Virus record (IMG/VR): IMGVR_UViG_2617270964_000009
Length of the DNA: 37,718 nucleotides
Source: a virus
Lineage: Duplodnaviria; Heunggongvirae; Uroviricota; Caudoviricetes
Strand: one strand, 5' to 3'
Of the stretch, positions 1-7,142 are shown one piece after another; positions within the stretch are counted from its first letter, which is position 1, and every line of letters begins with the position of its first letter. The translations under genes and the position numbers were made by a program. The notes beneath the pieces are model-generated. The model was not told the origin of the DNA and did not search any database. It saw only the letters and a program-made list of their open reading frames with translations.

Positions 1-573
1 TTACATTTCAGGTTGCGTTATGACAGTCCCAACAGGGTGGTAGCGGTAGATCGTTGACAGTCCAATATCATAGATAATTGCCAGCCGCTTTCTGTCATAC
101 CCTTTCTGGAGCAATCTTGCGATCTGCTCATGCTGCTCCTTCGTCAGTTTCGGGCGACGTCCTCCAACTCTCCCTTGTGCTCGCGCAGCAGCCAGTCCTG
201 CCAGCGTGCGCTCAACTATCAGTTCACGCTCCATTTCTGCCAGTGCACCCATCATATGAAAAAAGAACCTTCCCATCGGAGTGCTGGTATCGATTGAATC
301 CGTCAGACTGCGAAAATTGACACCTTTTGCGCGTAGCTCTTCTGTGAGAGCAATGAGGTGTTTCATTCTTCTACCCAACCGATCCAGCTTCCAGACCACC
401 AATGTATCCCCTCTTTTAAGGCACTTTAAAGCGCGTTTCAGGCCTGGTCGTTCCGACTTGGTTCCGCTCATTTTGTCCTCAAAAATCTGTTCACATCCTG
501 CGCACATTAATGCATTGCGTTGCAAATCTGTGTTTTGGTCATTTGTTGACACACGTATGTAGCCAATCAGCAT
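1..573 (-). CDS. gin: Serine DNA invertase, Gin/Hin/Pin/Cin family (complete, 190 aa)
   Basis: Translation begins MLIGYIRVSTNDQNTDLQRNAL with the resolvase catalytic-serine N-terminus and an HTH C-terminus; near colinear with Mu Gin as recalled from memory. Sits beside tail-fibre genes as in the Mu G-segment. Confidence 0.9.
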   Translation of the reverse strand: MLIGYIRVSTNDQNTDLQRNALMCAGCEQIFEDKMSGTKSERPGLKRALKCLKRGDTLVVWKLDRLGRRMKHLIALTEELRAKGVNFRSLTDSIDTSTPMGRFFFHMMGALAEMERELIVERTLAGLAAARAQGRVGGRRPKLTKEQHEQIARLLQKGYDRKRLAIIYDIGLSTIYRYHPVGTVITQPEM

Positions 574-627
574 TAAAAATACTCCCTTTTGAGTGGTTAA
601 AGTACTGAGATAATGTGGGGAGGATTT

Positions 628-653
628 GAGAGATAAACGTTGGTTTGGGCGAA
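628..653. promoter_or_regulatory. Candidate invertase crossover (gix/hix-like) site next to the invertase gene
   Basis: Sequence gagagataaacg-tt-ggtttgggcgaa; one half (GGTTTGGGCGAA) matches about 9 of 12 positions of the Gin/Hin half-site as I recall it, the other half is poor. No convincing partner site was found in the fibre gene by eye. Confidence 0.25.
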
Positions 654-1109
654 ACGATAAATAAAGCCTCCGGAGCTATGCAGAAATCGGCTAATGGAGC
701 TGATATTTCTGATGTATCAGCCTTCCGAAATGCGCTCCAGTTAGGGGCCGCCGCAACACGAGATGTTGGAGCAGATAATGCCTCGAAGTTACTGGATTTA
801 GACAGCTTCAGGTCAATGATGTCAGGGAATGGCTACATCTACATTCCATGCATTGCGACGACAGGAAACCCGGTGAAACTTATGTTGCAGTGGGGAACTG
901 TGGCAACACAAAAGGGAGCTGATGCTGGATATGCCTTACCATTTGCTTTTCCCTATGCAGGCTTGTTTGCGACCGGAAACCGTGGAACATCTGGCTACAA
1001 TGCCGCGATGAATGTGCGTATTGCCAGCAGAACGCATATCAGTATTCAGAACTGGTCGCCATCCGGAGAGGGCACCGAAGATTGTTGTTTTATCGCGCTG
1101 GGGTATTAA
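645..1109 (+). CDS. Alternative tail-fibre C-terminal segment (S'v-like), no independent ATG expected
   Basis: ORF opens just after an in-frame TGA at 627-629 and uses TTG in the track. It shares LQLG-AA-RDVG and a terminal ...ALGY motif with the C-terminus of the minus-strand fibre gene (…EAIGY). Position and orientation match Mu S'v. Confidence 0.5.
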   Translation: MGETINKASGAMQKSANGADISDVSAFRNALQLGAAATRDVGADNASKLLDLDSFRSMMSGNGYIYIPCIATTGNPVKLMLQWGTVATQKGADAGYALPFAFPYAGLFATGNRGTSGYNAAMNVRIASRTHISIQNWSPSGEGTEDCCFIALGY

Positions 1110-1111
1110 GA

Positions 1112-1522
1112 ATGAATAAATTTTATAAAGGCTCTTTCTATCCGGAAGCACTAAAAGATGTATATATCAGCGCCGGCTCATGGCCTGAAAACGGCGTTGA
1201 TGTTGATGATGAAACAATGGCAATTTACACGGGTGTCGTACCACAGGGTAAAATGCTAGGTTCCGATAAAAATGGCAACCCTGCTTGGGTGGATATTCCG
1301 CCTCTTTCAACGGAGCAATTAGTTGCCATTATGGAGCAGAAGAAAGGGAAACTTCGTTCGATAGCCGATGCTGAAATTAGCTGGCGACAGGATGCCGTTG
1401 ATGCAGGGATAGCGACGAAAGAGGAAACCGCCGCGTTATCTGAATGGAAAAAATACCGGGTCCTGCTGATGCGCGTTGATACAGCAAAACCCGTATGGCC
1501 TGTCAATCCGCAGGATATTTAA
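1112..1522 (+). CDS. Tail-fibre assembly protein (U'-like, Tfa family)
   Basis: Probable start MNKFYKGSFYP at 1112; C-terminus ...EWKKYRVLLMRVDTAKPVWPVNP is a typical Tfa signature; convergent with the second Tfa gene. Confidence 0.7.
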   Translation: MNKFYKGSFYPEALKDVYISAGSWPENGVDVDDETMAIYTGVVPQGKMLGSDKNGNPAWVDIPPLSTEQLVAIMEQKKGKLRSIADAEISWRQDAVDAGIATKEETAALSEWKKYRVLLMRVDTAKPVWPVNPQDI

Positions 1523-1736
1523 CGGGGGCGTTGTAGGTGGTGACATATTCAAGCAGTTCTGTTGGATATGTCACCGTTGCTGCATCTCGCTCTACGTTAA
1601 ATGTATCCGCTCCCCAGATAACACACTCCCTCAAAAATGCCTCCACCTCTGGCGAGACTTCAACCGCATCATCAGGTCGCTCTTGTTCAGAAACATAAAA
1701 ACCAACGGTCGTTGGGCTGAAATAGATATTCTCCAT
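1503..1736 (-). CDS. Tail-fibre assembly/chaperone protein (U-like, short 77 aa)
   Basis: N-terminus MENIYFSPTTVGFY resembles a Tfa N-terminus; lies immediately downstream of the fibre gene; its 3' end overlaps the U'-like gene by 20 bp. Confidence 0.5.
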   Translation of the reverse strand: MENIYFSPTTVGFYVSEQERPDDAVEVSPEVEAFLRECVIWGADTFNVERDAATVTYPTELLEYVTTYNAPVKYPAD

Positions 1737-1738
1737 AT

Positions 1739-3331
1739 TTAGTATCCTATTGCTTCAAAATGCAGTGTCGGTGTTTCGCCGAGATTGGGTGTCGTATACG
1801 CCACAGTGAATCGCGTTCTTGATACGTCAGTGCCAGAATCAGTATCGCGATGCGTTGCCAGTGATTTTCCGGCCATTGTTGACTGGGTCGGATAGCTGTA
1901 ACTCGCTAGTGTTGCCAGCGTTGCTATTTGTGCATTTGGGAATTGTCTGGGGAAATTAACCCTGTAGTAATGGGTGTAGTACGTCACCCCACCAAGCACC
2001 TGCGAGTTGAAGTTACCAACTGGTGTCAGTGTCACAGTGCCAGCCTGTCGAATCATACCATTTGGGAGAATATCCCAGGCAGTTTGTCCGTTTCGCGACA
2101 TACCAAATGCGGACATGTCCGGGAGTTGATTATTACCGGTTCCGACATCCCGTTTTGCCGCTTCTCCCAATTGAAGGTAATTGAGGACTTCTTTTATACT
2201 GCCCATAGCGATAATAGCGCGACCAATAGCTGTAAGGGTTGTCAGCGCTGCGCGGTCTGCTCCGGTAAAATAAGGCAACCGATCTGCTGCAGTGGCAAGT
2301 CCTGCCAGAGCAGTGAGCGTGGCATCTGCCGGTTGTTTTCCGTTTGCCAGATCGTATGCAGCCTTGACCGCTTTCGGTGTGGCGGCCAGTATTTCAGACG
2401 TGCTGTTGATGTCACTGCTCAATTGTACGGTGCCTTTTGCCGTCAGCGAGGCAGCAGGCACTCCCGTTATCTGACTCCACGGGTGAGTGTGGCTGACGGG
2501 CGCCTTACCGGCTGCAAGGTCGTATGCAGCCTTGACCGCCTTCGGCGTGGCAGCCTCAGTTTCTGATTGACTGTCCGTGGCGCTGCTCAGTTGTACGGTG
2601 CCTTTTGCCGTCAGCGAGGCAGCAGGCACTCCCGTTATCTGACTCCACGGGTGAGTGTGGCTGGCAGGCGCCTTGCCGGCTGCAAGGTCGTATGCAGCCT
2701 TGACCGCTTTCGGTGTGGCGGCCAGTATTTCAGACGTGCTGTTGATGTCACTGCTCAATTGTACGGTGCCTTTTGCCGTCAGCGAGGCAGCAGGCACTCC
2801 CGTTATCTGACTCCACGGGTGAGTGTGGCTGACGGGCGCCTTGCCGGCTGCAAGGTCGTATGCAGCCTTGACCGCCTTCGGCGTGGCAGCCTCAGTTTCT
2901 GATTGACTGTCCGTGGCGCTGCTCAGTTGTACGGTGCCTTTTGCCGTCAGCGAGGCAGCAGGCACTCCCGTTATCTGACTCCACGGGTGAGTATGGCTGA
3001 CGGGGGCCTTGCCGGCAGCCAGGTCATATGCAGCCTTGACGGCCTTTGGTGTGGCGGCCAGCGTTTCAGAGGTGCTGTTGGTGGCACTGCTCAGTTGGGT
3101 GAACCCCTTAGCTGTCAGTGTCGCGTCCGGGTGGTTACGGGAACGTACGTGTTCAGCCAGTGACTGTGCGGCTTCCTCCGTTTTTTTCTTCAGCCATTTC
3201 GTCCTGTTTGCCAGTTGCCGGGGGGCTCGATTTGATATCCCGTCTGCACCACCCAGAACCGGATCTGATGTCTCCAGTTGATAGATATTTTCTTCCCACT
3301 TTTCTGTTTCATTCAGGTTTCCCATAATCAA
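1739..3331 (-). CDS. Tail fibre protein (Mu S / P2 H-like), 530 aa
   Basis: N-terminus NETEKWEENIYQLETSDPVLGG...QLANRTKWL is the conserved fibre attachment region; five 56-aa repeats containing SHTHPW follow; C-terminal 150 aa is the variable receptor-binding part. Confidence 0.85.
   Translation of the reverse strand: MIMGNLNETEKWEENIYQLETSDPVLGGADGISNRAPRQLANRTKWLKKKTEEAAQSLAEHVRSRNHPDATLTAKGFTQLSSATNSTSETLAATPKAVKAAYDLAAGKAPVSHTHPWSQITGVPAASLTAKGTVQLSSATDSQSETEAATPKAVKAAYDLAAGKAPVSHTHPWSQITGVPAASLTAKGTVQLSSDINSTSEILAATPKAVKAAYDLAAGKAPASHTHPWSQITGVPAASLTAKGTVQLSSATDSQSETEAATPKAVKAAYDLAAGKAPVSHTHPWSQITGVPAASLTAKGTVQLSSDINSTSEILAATPKAVKAAYDLANGKQPADATLTALAGLATAADRLPYFTGADRAALTTLTAIGRAIIAMGSIKEVLNYLQLGEAAKRDVGTGNNQLPDMSAFGMSRNGQTAWDILPNGMIRQAGTVTLTPVGNFNSQVLGGVTYYTHYYRVNFPRQFPNAQIATLATLASYSYPTQSTMAGKSLATHRDTDSGTDVSRTRFTVAYTTPNLGETPTLHFEAIGY
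2341..3109 (-). repeat. In-frame 168-bp tandem repeats (about 4.5 copies, two alternating variants) inside the tail fibre gene
   Basis: The motif ttgtacggtgccttttgccgtcagcgaggcagcaggcactcccgttatctgactccacggg recurs at 2423, 2591, 2759 and 2925; it encodes the repeat ATPKAVKAAYDLAAGKAPVSHTHPWSQITGVPAASLTAKGTVQLSS. Confidence 0.85.
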
Positions 3332-3906
3332 CTGCTCCCGTGGTTATAACTGCCATCATGGATGGCGGTATTGTTATAGCGAATGGCCACAGACTGATAC
3401 TCCAGGCTGGCCAGATGGCAGCGGGCCGGTGCAAATGCAGCCAGCGTCTGACGCAGCATCGCGGCCTGATCGTTAGTAATGGGCTGTTTCAGAATAACGC
3501 GATAAACTGCCCAGGCGGCTGCATCTCCATGAACAAACAGTCCGTTATAGCTGCGATTGCCGTCGTAACTGAGACGACCTGTGCCTTCAATCAGATCCAC
3601 TTCACCAAAGCCAAAACGGCGGATAACTTCCCGGATTGACCACGGCGTCCCTTTATACCGGTGCAGTTCGATGGCTGCTTTTATAAGCATGCGGCGAACA
3701 TCGTCCGATTCCGCCAGCTCCCAGCCATCGCCAGACAGTGAGAACTGCTCGCCCAGCCATGGCAGCGCGGAACTGTCGACGATATCGACGAGAAAGACCA
3801 TCAGTACGCTCAGGTCGATGTTATCCAGCCGTCCTGCCAGTCTTCCCAGCGTCCTGAGACTGATATCACCCTCAAGCGGTGGCGGGAGTTGTAATGGCTC
3901 AGTCAT
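3328..3906 (-). CDS. Tail protein, Mu gp48 / P2 gpI-like
   Basis: 192-aa ORF placed between the baseplate J-like gene and the fibre gene, ending 2 bp before the fibre start; assignment is by synteny. Confidence 0.55.
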   Translation of the reverse strand: MTEPLQLPPPLEGDISLRTLGRLAGRLDNIDLSVLMVFLVDIVDSSALPWLGEQFSLSGDGWELAESDDVRRMLIKAAIELHRYKGTPWSIREVIRRFGFGEVDLIEGTGRLSYDGNRSYNGLFVHGDAAAWAVYRVILKQPITNDQAAMLRQTLAAFAPARCHLASLEYQSVAIRYNNTAIHDGSYNHGSS

Positions 3907-5002
3907 CAGACACTCCAGTCATGTTAAGAGTGATTGCCGTACAGTTTGCCCATTCGTTTTCTGCCACCACCCGCAGTGCCGGTGTCACCAGTTCAACCTG
4001 GTACACCCCGGAAACGGACAATGCACTGATAATCTGGCTGGGGACAATATCGCGCCCCAGCGTGGCGGCACGTGATGCCACCCAGTTCTGTATGGCGCTG
4101 TTAGCGACATCTTTTACAGACCTGGCATCCTGATCACGATAGATCGTAATCCTGGCTTCAATGGTGTAATCCACCTTCACTGGTGTTTTAGCCCGCACTG
4201 TATCAGTGAGTGGCCTGACTTTCTCATCAGAGCAGAAACTCTCTACCAGCGTGAGAACACCGCCGTCCGGCAGACCGGTACTGAGCAGCGGATACAGATC
4301 TACGGTCCCGGGAACCGGGGAAAGCACAGCAACATCGACAATGTTGGGATGGGCCTGCATGGCATGAAAGCGGTATGCGCCACGGCTTCCGGCATTGGTG
4401 AATGACTCCGGGGCCAGTCTGATACGCTCCCGGAGCCTGTCATCGTCTTCCTGTTCTGAACCGCCGGAACTGGCCGTCAGATTGCTCACCAGCAGGTCGA
4501 CGTTATCAATCTCATCGAGTAACTGACTGACCTGCGCAGGTTGCCAGCCGTTACCAGCGGTACCGGGTTCGGTACAGGTGGACGTGACATTGACCAGCAG
4601 CAATCCGGCCTTCAGTACCACATCTGTATCGGTGGCAAAAATAACGCTGTCGGAAGCGCTGACGCGGGTGCCTGCCGGGATCAGCACATCAATGGCCAGT
4701 GCCTCATCTACGGAGAACTGGAGCGTGGTAGTGGCAGGCTGCGCGGCAAGACGGTATACACCGACCAGTTCACCGAGGTAATCAATCATCGGCTCACGGG
4801 CAAAGGCGACCAGATTCTGCTTTGCTGCCTCCTGTACCGCAACCCTGACCAGCATTTCGCGATAGGCCCACAGATCAATCAGCAGACGTTCTGCCTGTGC
4901 CGGGTACAGCGTTTTGCCGGTATCCACTTCATACTTCGCAATCATTTCTGCCGTGATTTTGTCGGCATCGCGTTCAATAAAATCGGGTTCTGTCAGCGCC
5001 AT
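3899..5002 (-). CDS. Baseplate J-like protein (Mu gp47 / P2 gpJ-like)
   Basis: 367-aa ORF in the conserved baseplate position; size and synteny fit the J family; overlaps its neighbours by a few bp. Confidence 0.75.
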   Translation of the reverse strand: MALTEPDFIERDADKITAEMIAKYEVDTGKTLYPAQAERLLIDLWAYREMLVRVAVQEAAKQNLVAFAREPMIDYLGELVGVYRLAAQPATTTLQFSVDEALAIDVLIPAGTRVSASDSVIFATDTDVVLKAGLLLVNVTSTCTEPGTAGNGWQPAQVSQLLDEIDNVDLLVSNLTASSGGSEQEDDDRLRERIRLAPESFTNAGSRGAYRFHAMQAHPNIVDVAVLSPVPGTVDLYPLLSTGLPDGGVLTLVESFCSDEKVRPLTDTVRAKTPVKVDYTIEARITIYRDQDARSVKDVANSAIQNWVASRAATLGRDIVPSQIISALSVSGVYQVELVTPALRVVAENEWANCTAITLNMTGVSDD

Positions 5003-5340
5003 AGCAGCTCCTGAGTCCGGGTCTGTCCGTCTGAGCCTTTCCAGCTCACCCGGAGCGTAAGATGTTCGCCGTCGACGGCGGGTTTAACTGACATAAGCTG
5101 GCAGCGGGGCTCCCAGCGCCTGATGGCATCGACGGATTCGCGCACCACATGCGGAATGGCCCGGTCTACAGGCCAGTCGATATAAAGATGCAGATTGCTG
5201 CCGAACTCCGGGCGATGCGGGTCGCTGCCGCGGGGAGTCCGCAGGATAATTTGAATCGCCTGCCGGATATCATCCAGCCCCCGGACAATTTCGCCGGGAG
5301 CCTGCAGGGCTGGTTGCCAGAATACTGAGGTCGTTTTCAT
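4993..5340 (-). CDS. Baseplate protein (Mu gp46 / P2 gpW / T4 gp25-like)
   Basis: 115-aa ORF between the V-like and J-like genes, the conserved position for the W/gp25 wedge protein. Confidence 0.65.
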   Translation of the reverse strand: MKTTSVFWQPALQAPGEIVRGLDDIRQAIQIILRTPRGSDPHRPEFGSNLHLYIDWPVDRAIPHVVRESVDAIRRWEPRCQLMSVKPAVDGEHLTLRVSWKGSDGQTRTQELLWR

Positions 5341-5394
5341 GGGGGCAGTATTGCCCCCGTGCGGGAACGCTGATATTAAAGGCGTTTAAGAAGC

Positions 5395-5991
5395 TCAGTG
5401 GGAGTGGTGGCTGGAGTTTTCGCCATCAGACAGCATACTGCCCGTGACATGGGCATTCCCTTTAATCTCGATATTGCCATGGATGGTCGCGGTAACACCT
5501 TTACCACCAGAACCCGCCATGCCTCCTTCGTAAATCAGCTTTCCCCTGACACGCAGATCTCCGGTAAGTTCGGTTTCCGGTGCGTCAATCGTGGCTTTCT
5601 GTGTTTTCAATACCACATCAGCACCACACTCAATGACAATATGCTCAATGCCGCCCCGGATGGTCAGAGTGTGCGTCTTCCGGTTGTAGCTGTACTCTGC
5701 ACCATCAGCAAACCGGGTTCCCCGGATATTTTTGTCACTGAACGGTGGTTTATCGACGTCTGAATACACCGCGCCCAGAATAACACCATCCTCGCCGTTG
5801 GCATCGAGCAGCACCTCAACCTGCTCCCCCACGTCAGGGAGCCAGTAATCTTTGTTATCCTGGGTATTGCGCTGCAGCACGTTAAGCCAGTTTGTGCGCA
5901 GGTTATCGCATTCAGGCAGACGAACGCGGGCCTGAACCCTGTCGGCATCAACGGCACTGACCGTACCGACCTGACGAGTGACACCAGTCAT
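5395..5991 (-). CDS. Baseplate assembly protein V / spike (Mu gp45-like)
   Basis: 198 aa with a glycine-rich C-terminus (GGMAGSGGKGVTATIHGNIEIKGNAHVTG) typical of gpV spike proteins. Confidence 0.7.
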   Translation of the reverse strand: MTGVTRQVGTVSAVDADRVQARVRLPECDNLRTNWLNVLQRNTQDNKDYWLPDVGEQVEVLLDANGEDGVILGAVYSDVDKPPFSDKNIRGTRFADGAEYSYNRKTHTLTIRGGIEHIVIECGADVVLKTQKATIDAPETELTGDLRVRGKLIYEGGMAGSGGKGVTATIHGNIEIKGNAHVTGSMLSDGENSSHHSH

Positions 5992-7142
5992 TTTTTCTTC
6001 TCCTTAATCACCGTCGATGTACTGCCATCCGGGTGATAAACCGTGAGTTTCTGAGTTTTTTGTTTTTTCCCTCTTGTGACTGGCCCCCGTGCCACTTCCA
6101 GCTCTGTGGTGTAGCCGCTGTTACGGTCAAACGCATGGCGGGCAGTGGTTATGAGCCATGGCCCGGATAACTGCCCAAAACCCACCAGTTCAATTTTGTT
6201 GCCTGCTGTCAGTTGAGGTGTTCCCGTCAGCGTCAGGGAGCCGTTCTGCTGGTATTCGTTATGTCTGGCCAGTGCTGAATCCGCTTTAATCCGGGCACTG
6301 TCCGGGTCGCTGACGCGGCTGTTAACTTTAAGTGAGTCAGCGCTGGTAACCTTACCACCTTTGAGCTTTTTGTCGCTTTCACGGGTACCACCATCAGCTT
6401 CGTAGACGATCAGTTTTTTACTGCTGCTTTTCTGGTGTTTTACCTTTGCAGATTTATAGACCCGATTGATGGTGTCACGCAGGGAAAAGCGGGCCACATC
6501 CTGCGGTTTTAACTGCCTGACCGGCTCCTGACTGCGCAGTGTGGCCAGATGAGAAAAAATCAGCTGGTCACTGACCACTTTCACTGCATAACCATACTCG
6601 CTGGCCAGCCGGCGCAGAAAACCCACGTCGGTTTCAGCATACTGGGTCACCCGGTCGATTCTGATGGACTCAATGCTGCCCACCAGTTTCAGTCGGTGCT
6701 TTCTGGCAATCCGCCCCGCAACAGCTGCCAGCGTGGTGTTCTCAAAACCACGACTGGTTTTAGTCCGCAGGGCACTGTTAACCGAGGTGGCCACCCCACG
6801 GATAGAAACAACGGAAGCGGGCGAACTCACTTCGATCTCGTCTATAGAGAACGTACCGCAGGACAGCAGCTTCTCGCCCTGATAGCCCATTTTCAGCGTC
6901 AGCGTGTCACCCTTGCCCGGATACCACTTATCCAGCCAGCGGCCATCGGTGTCGTCCAGCTCCACCTCAATGGTATCGGACTCATTTTTGATGTTATCGC
7001 TCCAGGTCACACGGGTGACATAAGGCGCGATATCAGAGGTGATGTTTTTCTGCAGATACCACAGAGTGAACACCGGTGTCAGCACATCGCTGACGCCGGT
7101 TAACGCTGATGTGACTTGCGCAGTGCTGTTTATCTCAGCCAT
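5988..7142 (-). CDS. Tail protein, Mu gp44(P) / P2 gpD-like (baseplate hub)
   Basis: 384 aa, close to the Mu P and P2 D sizes; sits between the tape-measure and spike genes. Confidence 0.7.
   Translation of the reverse strand: MAEINSTAQVTSALTGVSDVLTPVFTLWYLQKNITSDIAPYVTRVTWSDNIKNESDTIEVELDDTDGRWLDKWYPGKGDTLTLKMGYQGEKLLSCGTFSIDEIEVSSPASVVSIRGVATSVNSALRTKTSRGFENTTLAAVAGRIARKHRLKLVGSIESIRIDRVTQYAETDVGFLRRLASEYGYAVKVVSDQLIFSHLATLRSQEPVRQLKPQDVARFSLRDTINRVYKSAKVKHQKSSSKKLIVYEADGGTRESDKKLKGGKVTSADSLKVNSRVSDPDSARIKADSALARHNEYQQNGSLTLTGTPQLTAGNKIELVGFGQLSGPWLITTARHAFDRNSGYTTELEVARGPVTRGKKQKTQKLTVYHPDGSTSTVIKEKKK

What the first reader, a model, noticed from the sequence alone, without database searches (positions are those of the whole stretch)
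1..3331. Gin-type invertase with a G-segment-like invertible tail-fibre cassette; crossover sites not obvious
The gene order gin <- | S'v-like -> U'-like -> | <- U-like <- Sv-Sc fibre is the Mu G-segment host-range switch. The two alternative fibre C-termini share LQLG..RDVG and a terminal ...GY, and there are two convergent fibre-assembly genes. The S'v-like ORF is opened by an in-frame TGA at 627-629, so a crossover must lie between about 630 and 720, but I could not find a matching inverted repeat in the fibre gene by eye. Only one Gin-like half-site (642-653) is recognisable, so the switch may use diverged sites or be fossilised.
Basis: partly seen in the sequence, partly recalled or inferred. 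Interest (0 to 1): 0.5.

Follow-up and report, generated by a model that had tools for sequence, protein, structure and literature searches.

The report
Invertible tail-fibre switch, Mu-like prophage
This is an ordinary, apparently working phage host-range switch: a Gin-type enzyme flips a 1.5-kb DNA segment to swap the tip of the tail fibre, and the two "missing" 26-bp crossover sites are now located.

Summary
The window is a Mu-like transposable prophage whose tail region is 99% identical to prophage Phi2 of E. coli EC958. Its Gin-type serine invertase (1-573, minus strand) is 190/190 identical to the Phi2 enzyme, whose inversion was shown by PacBio reads (Forde 2014, PMC4134206).

The crossover sites are 628-653 (GAGAGATAAACG|TT|GGTTTGGGCGAA) and 2162-2187 (reverse complement TCCTCAATTACC|TT|CAATTGGGAGAA). 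They are inverted relative to each other, share the central dinucleotide and sit in the same codon phase. In-silico inversion gives an in-frame 541-residue ORF (539 aa from the likely ATG). The sites match each other at only 13 of 26 positions, which explains why they were missed by eye.

The outer half-sites are identical to the published Phi2 sites. The inner half-sites, including the non-canonical CAATTG one, are identical to those in a near-isogenic P2-like prophage pair (EC26 and EC11) that carries this same cassette in opposite orientations, exchanged exactly at TT. Lambdoid prophages and P1-like plasmids show the same thing.

The "U-like" gene is a 77-aa ORF with only an N-terminal Tfa-like motif.

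Nothing indicates a fossil. This is a new member of a known kind, and interest is low.

The parts
1..573 (-). gin-type serine DNA invertase, 190 aa, with catalytic Ser9
   Evidence: Resolvase and HTH_7 domains. Matches Mu Gin PDB 4M6F at E=2e-93. It is 73% identical to Mu Gin and 190/190 identical to WP_000904922.1 of EC958 Phi2. The Fis/enhancer-contact residues are conserved: Q150, R153 and L154, and the basic residues K46, R47 and K50. These correspond to Hin 151, 154, 155 and 47, 48, 51 by a +1 offset.
420..480 (.). candidate recombinational enhancer: two Fis-like 15-mers inside the 5' part of gin (466-480 and 420-434, which are gin nt 94-108 and 140-154)
   Evidence: Two G-N13-C 15-mers with A/T-rich centres lie at the same gin coordinates in Mu gin. 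Their centres are 46 bp apart by my reading, against 47 bp in hin (PMC3798978). This is inferred and not demonstrated.
627..629 (+). in-frame TGA that closes the S'v reading frame upstream, so the cassette is silent in this orientation
   Evidence: Read directly from the sequence.
628..653 (+). invertase-proximal 26-bp crossover site, GAGAGATAAACG|TT|GGTTTGGGCGAA, with the core at 640-641
   Evidence: Homology breakpoints fall at 635-653. The outer half plus core is identical to the published EC958 Phi2_3prime site. It ranks 3rd of about 37,700 positions with a PWM built from published Din sites.
642..2173 (.). invertible segment of 1,532 bp between the two cores
   Evidence: The same segment lies inverted at 95.0% identity in EC11. 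It is found in both orientations in EC26 vs EC11 at 99.87% identity, in L001 vs L005 at 99.0% and in L011 vs L012 at 99.7%.
654..1109 (+). S'v: the silent alternative fibre C-terminus (Gp53-like_C)
   Evidence: Pfam hit. In-silico inversion fuses it in frame to Sc, giving ..VLNYLGLGETINK.. and a 541-residue ORF from the mechanical TTG at 3331, or 539 aa from the likely ATG at 3325. This same fusion exists in E. coli E-1246 (L003).
1112..1522 (+). U': the tail-fibre assembly protein that goes with S'v
   Evidence: Caudo_TAP at E=4e-31 and phrog_188 at E=5e-43.
1503..1736 (-). orf77: a short ORF immediately downstream of Sv, with an N-terminal Tfa-like motif only, overlapping the U' 3' end by 20 nt
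   Evidence: phrog_188 matches residues 1-31 only. The ORF is intact and nearly identical in all six copies examined. A 51%-identical homologue sits in the same position in Klebsiella phage KP12 clone 2.
1739..2173 (-). Sv: the currently expressed variable fibre C-terminus (Gp53-like_C)
   Evidence: Pfam hit. It is 32% identical to S'v.
2162..2187 (-). fibre-internal 26-bp crossover site. Minus strand reads TCCTCAATTACC|TT|CAATTGGGAGAA, core at 2174-2175, encoding ..LNYLQLGE
   Evidence: Homology breakpoints fall at 2161-2179. The outer half is identical to the published EC958 Phi2_5prime site. The inner half CAATTGGGAGAA is seen joined to different outer halves in flipped isoforms. It ranks 1st in the window with the Din PWM.
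2176..3325 (-). Sc: the constant N-terminal part of the tail fibre, with five Phage_fiber_2 repeats and a 168-bp tandem array at 2345-3097
   Evidence: Pfam hit at E=4e-89 and TRF result. It is 96.5-99% identical to EC958 Phi2.

Best explanation
This is a functional Din-family (Gin/Cin/Pin/Hin-type) site-specific inversion switch in an EC958-Phi2-like, Mu-like prophage.

Proposed mechanism:
- Gin dimers bind the two 26-bp sites at 628-653 and 2162-2187.
- They synapse, probably with Fis bound to an enhancer inside the 5' end of gin.
- They cut at the central TT/AA and rotate, inverting the 1.53-kb segment.

In the present orientation the late tail operon makes Sc-Sv (528 aa from the likely ATG at 3325) followed by orf77. 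After inversion it makes Sc-S'v (539 aa from that ATG) followed by the Tfa-type chaperone U'. This changes the receptor-binding tip and hence the host range.

What is shown: the anatomy, the sites, frame compatibility, both isoforms in nature, and published inversion by the identical enzyme. What is inferred: Fis and enhancer dependence, activity in this particular genome, and the receptor specificities.
For: 1. The invertase is intact, has Ser9 and carries the invertase-specific Fis-contact residues.
2. It is 190/190 identical to the EC958 Phi2 invertase. PacBio assembly of EC958 produced an alternative-orientation contig, and Forde et al. list the sites TCCTCAATTACCTT|GGTTTAGGAGAA and GAGAGATAAACGTT|GGTTTGGGGGAA. 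Their outer halves and cores equal those in the window.
3. EC958 and WP3-W18-ESBL-07 carry Phi2 at the same aroA locus in opposite orientations. The inner-half polymorphisms travel with the segment, which places the exchange within the 7 bp TT-GGTTT that hold the core, and not elsewhere in the 227-bp inverted repeat.
4. The window's own cassette, with inner halves identical to the window's (GGTTTGGGCGAA and CAATTGGGAGAA), is flipped between the near-isogenic P2-like prophages EC26 and EC11. Flanks are 99.5% and 99.7% identical, the segment 99.87%, and the junctions swap exactly at TT. Lambdoid L001 vs L005 and P1-like plasmids L011 vs L012, which share the same recombinase, show the same.
5. 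Junction counts in 5,426 E. coli genomes:
   - Recombinase-S'v junction: 64 genomes.
   - Recombinase-Sv junction: 15 genomes.
   - Sc-S'v junction: 15 genomes.
6. In-silico inversion keeps the frame.
7. The two sites rank 1st and 3rd in the window on a PWM built from published Din sites. The chance of such hits falling in the required intervals is about 0.008 and 0.023.
Against: - No reads or second isolate of this exact prophage are available, so inversion here is not observed directly.
- No complete E. coli genome holds the window's exact combination in either orientation. The best single-place coverage was 64%, at 87% identity.
- The sites are weak matches to characterised sites, at 8.8 and 11.5 bits against 17-32 bits, and are no better than the best hit in shuffled sequence when position is ignored.
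- The combination of the Phi2 Gin with the CAATTG inner half has not been seen flipped. That half-site is validated only with invertases 75% and 84% identical to this one.
- No sigma-70-like promoter for gin was found.
- The Fis-like 15-mers are 46 bp apart, not 47 bp.
Confidence: 0.86

Rival explanations
1. Fossilised switch. The cassette was captured from another phage, and the non-canonical site 2 (inner half CAATTG in place of AAACC) is no longer a substrate for this Gin, so the prophage is locked in the Sv orientation.
For: The PWM scores are weak, and two consensus positions next to the core are lost in the site 2 inner half. No genome shows this Gin joined to the CAATTG half on the invertase-proximal side (Mu-like hits stop being collinear about 62-65 nt past the junction). 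L009, which carries the same Gin, has the canonical GGTTT form in front of a similar Sv start.
Against: The CAATTG half recombines precisely at TT in three other backbones, with Pin-like and Cin-like enzymes 75% and 84% identical to this one. By established knowledge, and not tested here, Gin, Cin, Pin and Hin complement one another, and Cin uses poorly matching quasi-sites provided the central dinucleotide fits (Iida and Hiestand-Nauer 1987, cited). Positions 5-12 of the half-site, which are the part I recall the invertase DNA-binding domain contacting (from memory, not checked here), are canonical (TTGGGAGAA). Both cassettes and gin are intact.
Confidence: 0.09
2. The orientation differences among genomes come from homologous recombination or horizontal cassette replacement, not from invertase action. 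On this view the 26-bp 'sites' are merely module boundaries.
For: The cassette occurs in four unrelated backbones, so horizontal exchange certainly happens. In EC958 Phi2 the sites lie inside a 227-bp repeat of 96% identity that RecA could use.
Against: In this cassette the two ends share no repeat beyond the 26-bp sites, which match at 13 of 26 positions. This is too short and too diverged for RecA. Even so, near-isogenic pairs differ by a clean inversion with the exchange point at the TT core. In Phi2 the inner-half polymorphisms map the exchange to the core and not to the long repeat. About half of the EC958 culture reads were flipped at Phi1, and alternative contigs arose for Phi2.
Confidence: 0.03
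3. The switch is flipped mainly in trans by other Pin/Cin-type invertases resident in the same cell. The local gin is dispensable or silent.
For: Lambdoid copies with truncated recombinase genes (L001, L005) still occur in both orientations. Forde et al. infer trans action on Phi4. No gin promoter was recognised.
Against: gin here is intact and identical to the Phi2 gene. This reading complements the main explanation and does not replace it.
Confidence: 0.02

Closest known systems
Invertible tail-fibre segment of prophage Phi2 of E. coli ST131 EC958 (Forde et al. 2014, PLoS One 9:e104400; PMC4134206)
   Same: The invertase protein is identical (190/190). The backbone is the same Mu-like prophage, with 99% nucleotide identity over the fibre constant part and the baseplate genes. 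The outer half-sites and the TT core are identical, and the layout is the same.
   Different: The invertible cassette is replaced, precisely at the crossover sites. Phi2 has a 2,067-bp segment with Tail-Collar-type tips, 227-bp inverted repeats and, by my scan, a third site. The window has a 1,532-bp segment with Gp53-like_C tips, no repeat beyond the 26-bp sites, a CAATTG inner half-site and the 77-aa orf77.
Phage Mu G segment with Gin and gix sites
   Same: Both are transposable phages with the same gene order (baseplate, S, U | U', S' | gin) and a crossover inside the fibre gene. Mu gix encodes ..NLGLQE and this locus ..YLGLGE or ..YLQLGE. The Fis-like 15-mers sit at the same gin coordinates.
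   Different: Gin is only 73% identical. The core is TT/AA, as in Pin, Cin, Hin and Min, and not GA/TC. There are no 34-bp perfect repeats. The variable parts and chaperones are unrelated in family, and the segment is 1.5 kb against 3 kb.
e14 Pin with the P segment, P1 Cin with the C segment, and p15B Min
   Same: The core is AA/TT. Site 1 resembles pixR and the mix sites (..CCCAAACC AA CGTTTAT..). The outer half of site 2 resembles mixQ''R' (GGTAAT..). Some characterised sites likewise pair one good half-site with one poor one, such as hixR and three of the mix sites. The very same cassette sits in Pin-type P2-like and lambdoid prophages and in Cin-type P1-like plasmids.
   Different: The backbone and invertase lineage differ, at 75-84% identity. 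There are only two sites here, against six in Min.

Membership tests
Din-family (Gin/Hin/Cin/Pin) serine DNA invertase system | A small serine recombinase with an N-terminal catalytic domain carrying the nucleophilic Ser9/10 and a C-terminal HTH | tested here: met
   Resolvase (E=8e-51) and HTH_7 (E=1e-12) domains. Residues 1-181 align to Mu Gin 4M6F at E=2e-93, with the RVS motif at residues 7-9. phrog_125 'DNA invertase' matches at E=1e-94.
Din-family (Gin/Hin/Cin/Pin) serine DNA invertase system | Two 26-bp crossover sites in inverted orientation, each made of two imperfect 12-bp half-sites around a 2-bp core that is identical in both sites | tested here: met
   The sites are 628-653 and 2162-2187, with core TT/AA, inverted relative to each other. 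They rank 3rd and 1st on a PWM from published sites, but at low absolute scores. The outer halves equal the published Phi2 sites.
Din-family (Gin/Hin/Cin/Pin) serine DNA invertase system | A recombinational enhancer with two Fis sites about 47 bp apart, located in cis, classically in the 5' part of the invertase gene | tested here: inconclusive
   Two Fis-like G-N13-C 15-mers lie at gin nt 94-108 and 140-154, at the same coordinates as in Mu gin, with centres 46 bp apart. The reference architecture comes from PMC3798978. No binding data exist for this locus.
Din-family (Gin/Hin/Cin/Pin) serine DNA invertase system | Invertase-specific residues that contact Fis and the enhancer (Hin Q151, R154, L155, and basic residues 47, 48, 51) | tested here: met
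   Q150, R153, L154 and K46, R47, K50 are present. The +1 offset relative to Hin is fixed by the alignment to the Hin DNA-binding domain 1HCR.
Din-family (Gin/Hin/Cin/Pin) serine DNA invertase system | The segment is actually found in both orientations, with exchange at the core | tested here: met
   For the identical enzyme: published PacBio isoforms in EC958, and EC958 vs WP3-W18-ESBL-07. For the identical inner half-sites and cassette: EC26 vs EC11, L001 vs L005 and L011 vs L012. It was not testable for the window's own genome, because no reads are available.
G-segment-type tail-fibre host-range cassette | A constant fibre N-terminus is fused in frame to one of two alternative C-termini. 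Each C-terminus is followed by its own assembly gene, and the silent copy lacks a start and a promoter. | tested here: met
   Both fusions are in frame, at 530 and 541 residues from the mechanical TTG at 3331, or 528 and 539 aa from the likely ATG at 3325. The TGA at 627-629 closes the silent copy. U' is a complete Caudo_TAP protein. The partner of Sv is the atypical 77-aa orf77.
Phage Mu (Muvirus) G segment proper | gix sites with a GA core inside 34-bp perfect inverted repeats, and Mu S/U and S'/U' sequences | tested here: not met
   The core is TT/AA and the sites match each other at only 13 of 26 positions. Gin is 73% identical. The variable parts belong to the Gp53-like_C family. The locus works like the G segment but is not that element.

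The most novel reading that the evidence does not exclude
The 26-bp crossover sites double as portable module junctions. One and the same 1.5-kb invertible cassette (95-99.9% identical) has been slotted, exactly at the TT cores, into four unrelated backbones: Mu-like, P2-like and lambdoid prophages, and P1-like plasmids. This would suggest invertase-mediated intermolecular cassette exchange. On this reading the cassette also carries a non-canonical CAATTG half-site tolerated by at least three invertase lineages, and a minimal 77-aa chaperone-like protein that would replace a full-length Tfa.
Probability: 0.3. Interest if true: 0.35.

Novelty: new member of a known kind. Interest (0 to 1): 0.15.

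Why it matters
It matters little for mechanism, because this is the textbook Gin/Pin/Cin host-range switch. The same enzyme and the same outer half-sites were already reported for EC958 prophage Phi2.

The practical value lies in three points:
- The crossover sites of this cassette type are now defined. They match each other at only 13 of 26 positions, and one half-site is non-canonical. Annotation pipelines and inverted-repeat-based inversion finders would miss them.
- The same receptor-binding cassette circulates among Mu-like, P2-like, lambdoid and P1-like elements of E. coli. This is relevant to predicting prophage and phage-plasmid host range.
- Fibre genes around such switches are often mis-annotated as pseudogenes or fragments.

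Tried and rejected
- A generic inverted-repeat search over 560-3400 listed 150 pairs. The true site pair was not among the 25 longest, and those 25 include several internal palindromes of the 168-bp fibre repeats.
- The core pattern AAACCNNGGTTT with up to 2 mismatches found only site 1, and the number of hits was below chance expectation.
- A PWM built from published Din sites is not significant against whole-window shuffles when used alone. The mean best score in shuffles is 10.9 bits, against 11.5 and 8.8 bits for the two sites. Significance comes only from position, orientation, core, frame and the comparative data.
- I considered a third site at the S'v-internal LQLG (about 724-749). It is homologous to the Sv junction at 23 of 32 nt by my own hand alignment of the sequence. 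However, its core is TC and the neighbouring PWM registers all score strongly negative (the exact register was not printed), so I rejected it.
- The PWM rank-2 hit at 2189-2214, next to site 2, has a GC core and a poor right half. I treat it as chance.
- NCBIfam gave no specific family for any of the five proteins.
- The promoter scan found no gin promoter.
- No dN/dS could be obtained for orf77, because the six copies differ by at most 1 nt.
- I looked for the window's exact cassette and backbone combination in either orientation in 5,426 complete E. coli genomes and found none.
- Johnson's 2015 review could not be retrieved.


Full report
**Anatomy**

Window 1-3331 holds the following features.
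- A 190-aa serine recombinase on the minus strand at 1-573, with Resolvase and HTH_7 domains.
- A start-less ORF with a Gp53-like_C domain at 645-1109 (+), here called S'v.
- A complete Caudo_TAP tail-fibre assembly gene at 1112-1522 (+), here called U'.
- A 77-aa ORF at 1503-1736 (-), here called orf77.
- A tail-fibre gene at 1739-3331 (-), with five Phage_fiber_2 repeats and a Gp53-like_C end.

The fibre probably starts at the ATG at 3325, just after the stop of the gpI-like gene. This is my reading of the sequence, and it agrees with the RefSeq annotation of the homologue. An in-frame TGA at 627-629 closes the S'v frame upstream.

The rest of the window is a Mu-like transposable prophage. 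It has an rve transposase, a MuB-like AAA protein, Portal_Mu, Mu_F, and the gene order gpD-V-W-J-I-fibre. Window 2673-6400 is 99.0% identical to prophage Phi2 of E. coli EC958, which lies next to aroA.

**Finding the crossover sites**

A generic inverted-repeat search does not surface them. BLAST against phage and E. coli collections showed instead that homology to other elements breaks at two places, 635-653 and 2161-2179. At those places lie two sites.
- Site 1, 628-653: GAGAGATAAACG|TT|GGTTTGGGCGAA on the plus strand.
- Site 2, 2162-2187: TCCTCAATTACC|TT|CAATTGGGAGAA on the minus strand.

The sites are inverted relative to each other, share the central dinucleotide and lie in the same codon phase (..NY-L|QLGE and ..IN-V|GLGE). 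An in-silico inversion of 642-2173 gives an in-frame fibre ORF of 541 residues from the mechanical TTG at 3331, or 539 aa from the likely ATG at 3325. It reads ..VLNYLGLGETINK.. and is followed directly by U'.

The two sites match each other at only 13 of 26 positions.

I built a PWM from the published hix, gix, cix, pix, mix and bix sites (PMC3241671 Table 3). Site 2 and site 1 rank 1st and 3rd among about 37,700 positions. They score only 11.5 and 8.8 bits, against 17-32 bits for characterised sites. By score alone they are therefore not significant. The chance of such hits falling in the required intervals is about 0.008 and 0.023, before also requiring orientation, core identity and frame.

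The inner half of site 2 departs from the family consensus at the two positions next to the core (TTCTCCCAATTG against TTC----AAAC-).

**Is the invertase active?**

The protein is 190/190 identical to WP_000904922.1 of EC958 Phi2. Forde et al. 2014 (PMC4134206) reported alternative-allele PacBio contigs for Phi2. They listed its crossover sites as TCCTCAATTACCTT|GGTTTAGGAGAA and GAGAGATAAACGTT|GGTTTGGGGGAA. The outer halves and the core are exactly those of the window.

Independently, EC958 and WP3-W18-ESBL-07 carry Phi2 at the same aroA locus with the segment in opposite orientations. The two inner halves differ at two positions, and these differences travel with the segment. The exchange therefore lies within the 7 bp TT-GGTTT that hold the core, and not elsewhere in the 227-bp repeat.

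**Are the window's inner half-sites usable?**

The window's whole segment (637-2178) occurs at 95% identity, inverted, in a P2-like prophage of strain EC11. Three pairs of closely related elements show this cassette in both orientations.
- EC26 carries the same P2-like prophage as EC11. Flanks are 99.5% and 99.7% identical, and the segment is 99.87% identical but inverted. The four junctions are clean reciprocal swaps at TT. EC26 has TTTTCATAAACG-TT-GGTTTGGGCGAA and TTCTCGCATACC-TT-CAATTGGGAGAA, and EC11 has the opposite pairing. Both inner halves are identical to the window's.
- Two lambdoid prophages, L001 and L005, carry the segment at 99.0% identity in opposite orientations.
- Two P1-like plasmids with the same recombinase, L011 and L012, carry it at 99.7% identity in opposite orientations.

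In a Phi2-type prophage of strain E-1246, Sc is fused to the window's S'v type exactly as predicted: TCCTCAATTACC-TT-GGTTTGGGAGAA-ACGATAAATAAAGCC.

Junction counts across 5,426 complete E. coli genomes, at 80% or more query coverage, are as follows.

| Junction | Genomes |
|---|---|
| Recombinase-S'v | 64 |
| Recombinase-Sv | 15 |
| Sc-S'v | 15 |
| Sv-Sc | 9, plus many fusions to other Sc types |

**Family features**

The enzyme is 73% identical to Mu Gin, 75% to the P2-like Pin-type enzyme and 84% to the P1-like plasmid enzyme. It has Ser9.

It also has the residues that McLean et al. (PMC3798978) describe as uniquely conserved in Fis/enhancer-dependent invertases. These are Hin Q151, R154 and L155, which correspond here to Q150, R153 and L154, and the basic residues 47, 48 and 51, which correspond here to K46, R47 and K50.

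Two Fis-like 15-mers lie at gin nt 94-108 and 140-154 (window 466-480 and 420-434). Mu gin has such 15-mers at the same coordinates. Their centres are 46 bp apart by my reading, whereas hin has 47 bp. I regard the enhancer as likely but not shown. No sigma-70-like promoter for gin was picked up.

**The 'U-like' gene**

orf77 is not a standard Tfa. Only its first 31 residues match the Tfa family. It is intact in all six copies examined, with at most one nucleotide difference. It starts 2 nt after the Sv stop. A 51%-identical homologue sits in the same place, after an Sv cassette and next to an invertase, in Klebsiella phage KP12 clone 2. It is probably the cognate, short assembly factor for this Gp53-like tip. 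That is an inference.

**Verdict**

The crossover sites exist but are short and diverged, and nothing points to a fossil.

The residual uncertainty is that inversion has not been observed in this very genome, and that this Gin has not been seen acting on the CAATTG half-site.

The system is a new member of a well-known kind. It is effectively EC958 Phi2 with a different invertible cassette, one that also circulates in P2-like, lambdoid and P1-like elements. That fits Sandmeier's (1994) theme of acquisition and rearrangement of tail-fibre sequence motifs, known to me here only from the title and citation; that the sites act as the module junctions is my own inference.

Noticed in passing
L002 4067-4092 (EC958 Phi2), L010 1567-1592 and L007 2931-2956: Phi2-type relatives carry a third crossover-like site, GGCATAGAAACG|TT|GGTTTGGGGGAA. 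It is in direct orientation to the invertase-proximal site and precedes a second silent fibre-tip cassette. The switch could therefore have three alleles, as in Min. Forde et al. list only two sites for Phi2. Some genomes (for example H152-H154) lack about 439 bp, which equals the distance between the two direct sites, as expected from a site-specific deletion.
   Followed up: partly
window 724-770: S'v contains an internal relic of the Sv-type junction (..NALQLGAAATRDVG). It matches the Sv junction at 23 of 32 nt by my hand alignment, has a TC core and lies 29 codons downstream of the real crossover. S'v seems to have gained a new adaptor that carries a canonical GLGE site.
   Followed up: partly
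window 2345-3097: The constant part of the fibre gene holds a 168-bp (56-aa) tandem array of 4.5 copies. Copy number differs among relatives; the E-1246 locus is 168 bp longer.
   Followed up: partly
window 2189-2214: The second-best Din-PWM hit in the whole window (TTCTTTTATACT GC CCATAGCGATAA) lies directly beside site 2. Its core is GC and its right half is poor, so it is probably chance. It lies in the fibre constant part, which is highly similar in Phi2 relatives.
   Followed up: no
window 1503-1522: The convergent genes U' and orf77 overlap by 20 nt at their 3' ends. No terminator-like structure was found between them.
   Followed up: no
window 1: The window starts exactly at the gin stop codon. 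In EC958 the prophage end and aroA follow within about 255 bp, so the right end of the prophage (attR) lies outside the window.
   Followed up: partly
L001 1068-2672 (NZ_AP027818.1) and L005 1613-3387: In the lambdoid copies the recombinase gene is truncated. In one case it lies next to a TIR-domain reverse transcriptase (a defence gene), and in the other next to IS903B and ISKpn26 elements. The cassette still occurs in both orientations, which implies inversion in trans.
   Followed up: no
OP434518.1 (phage phi458) 39754-42156: The same cassette in phage phi458 is interrupted by an IS element (InsA and transposase B are annotated under the match).
   Followed up: no
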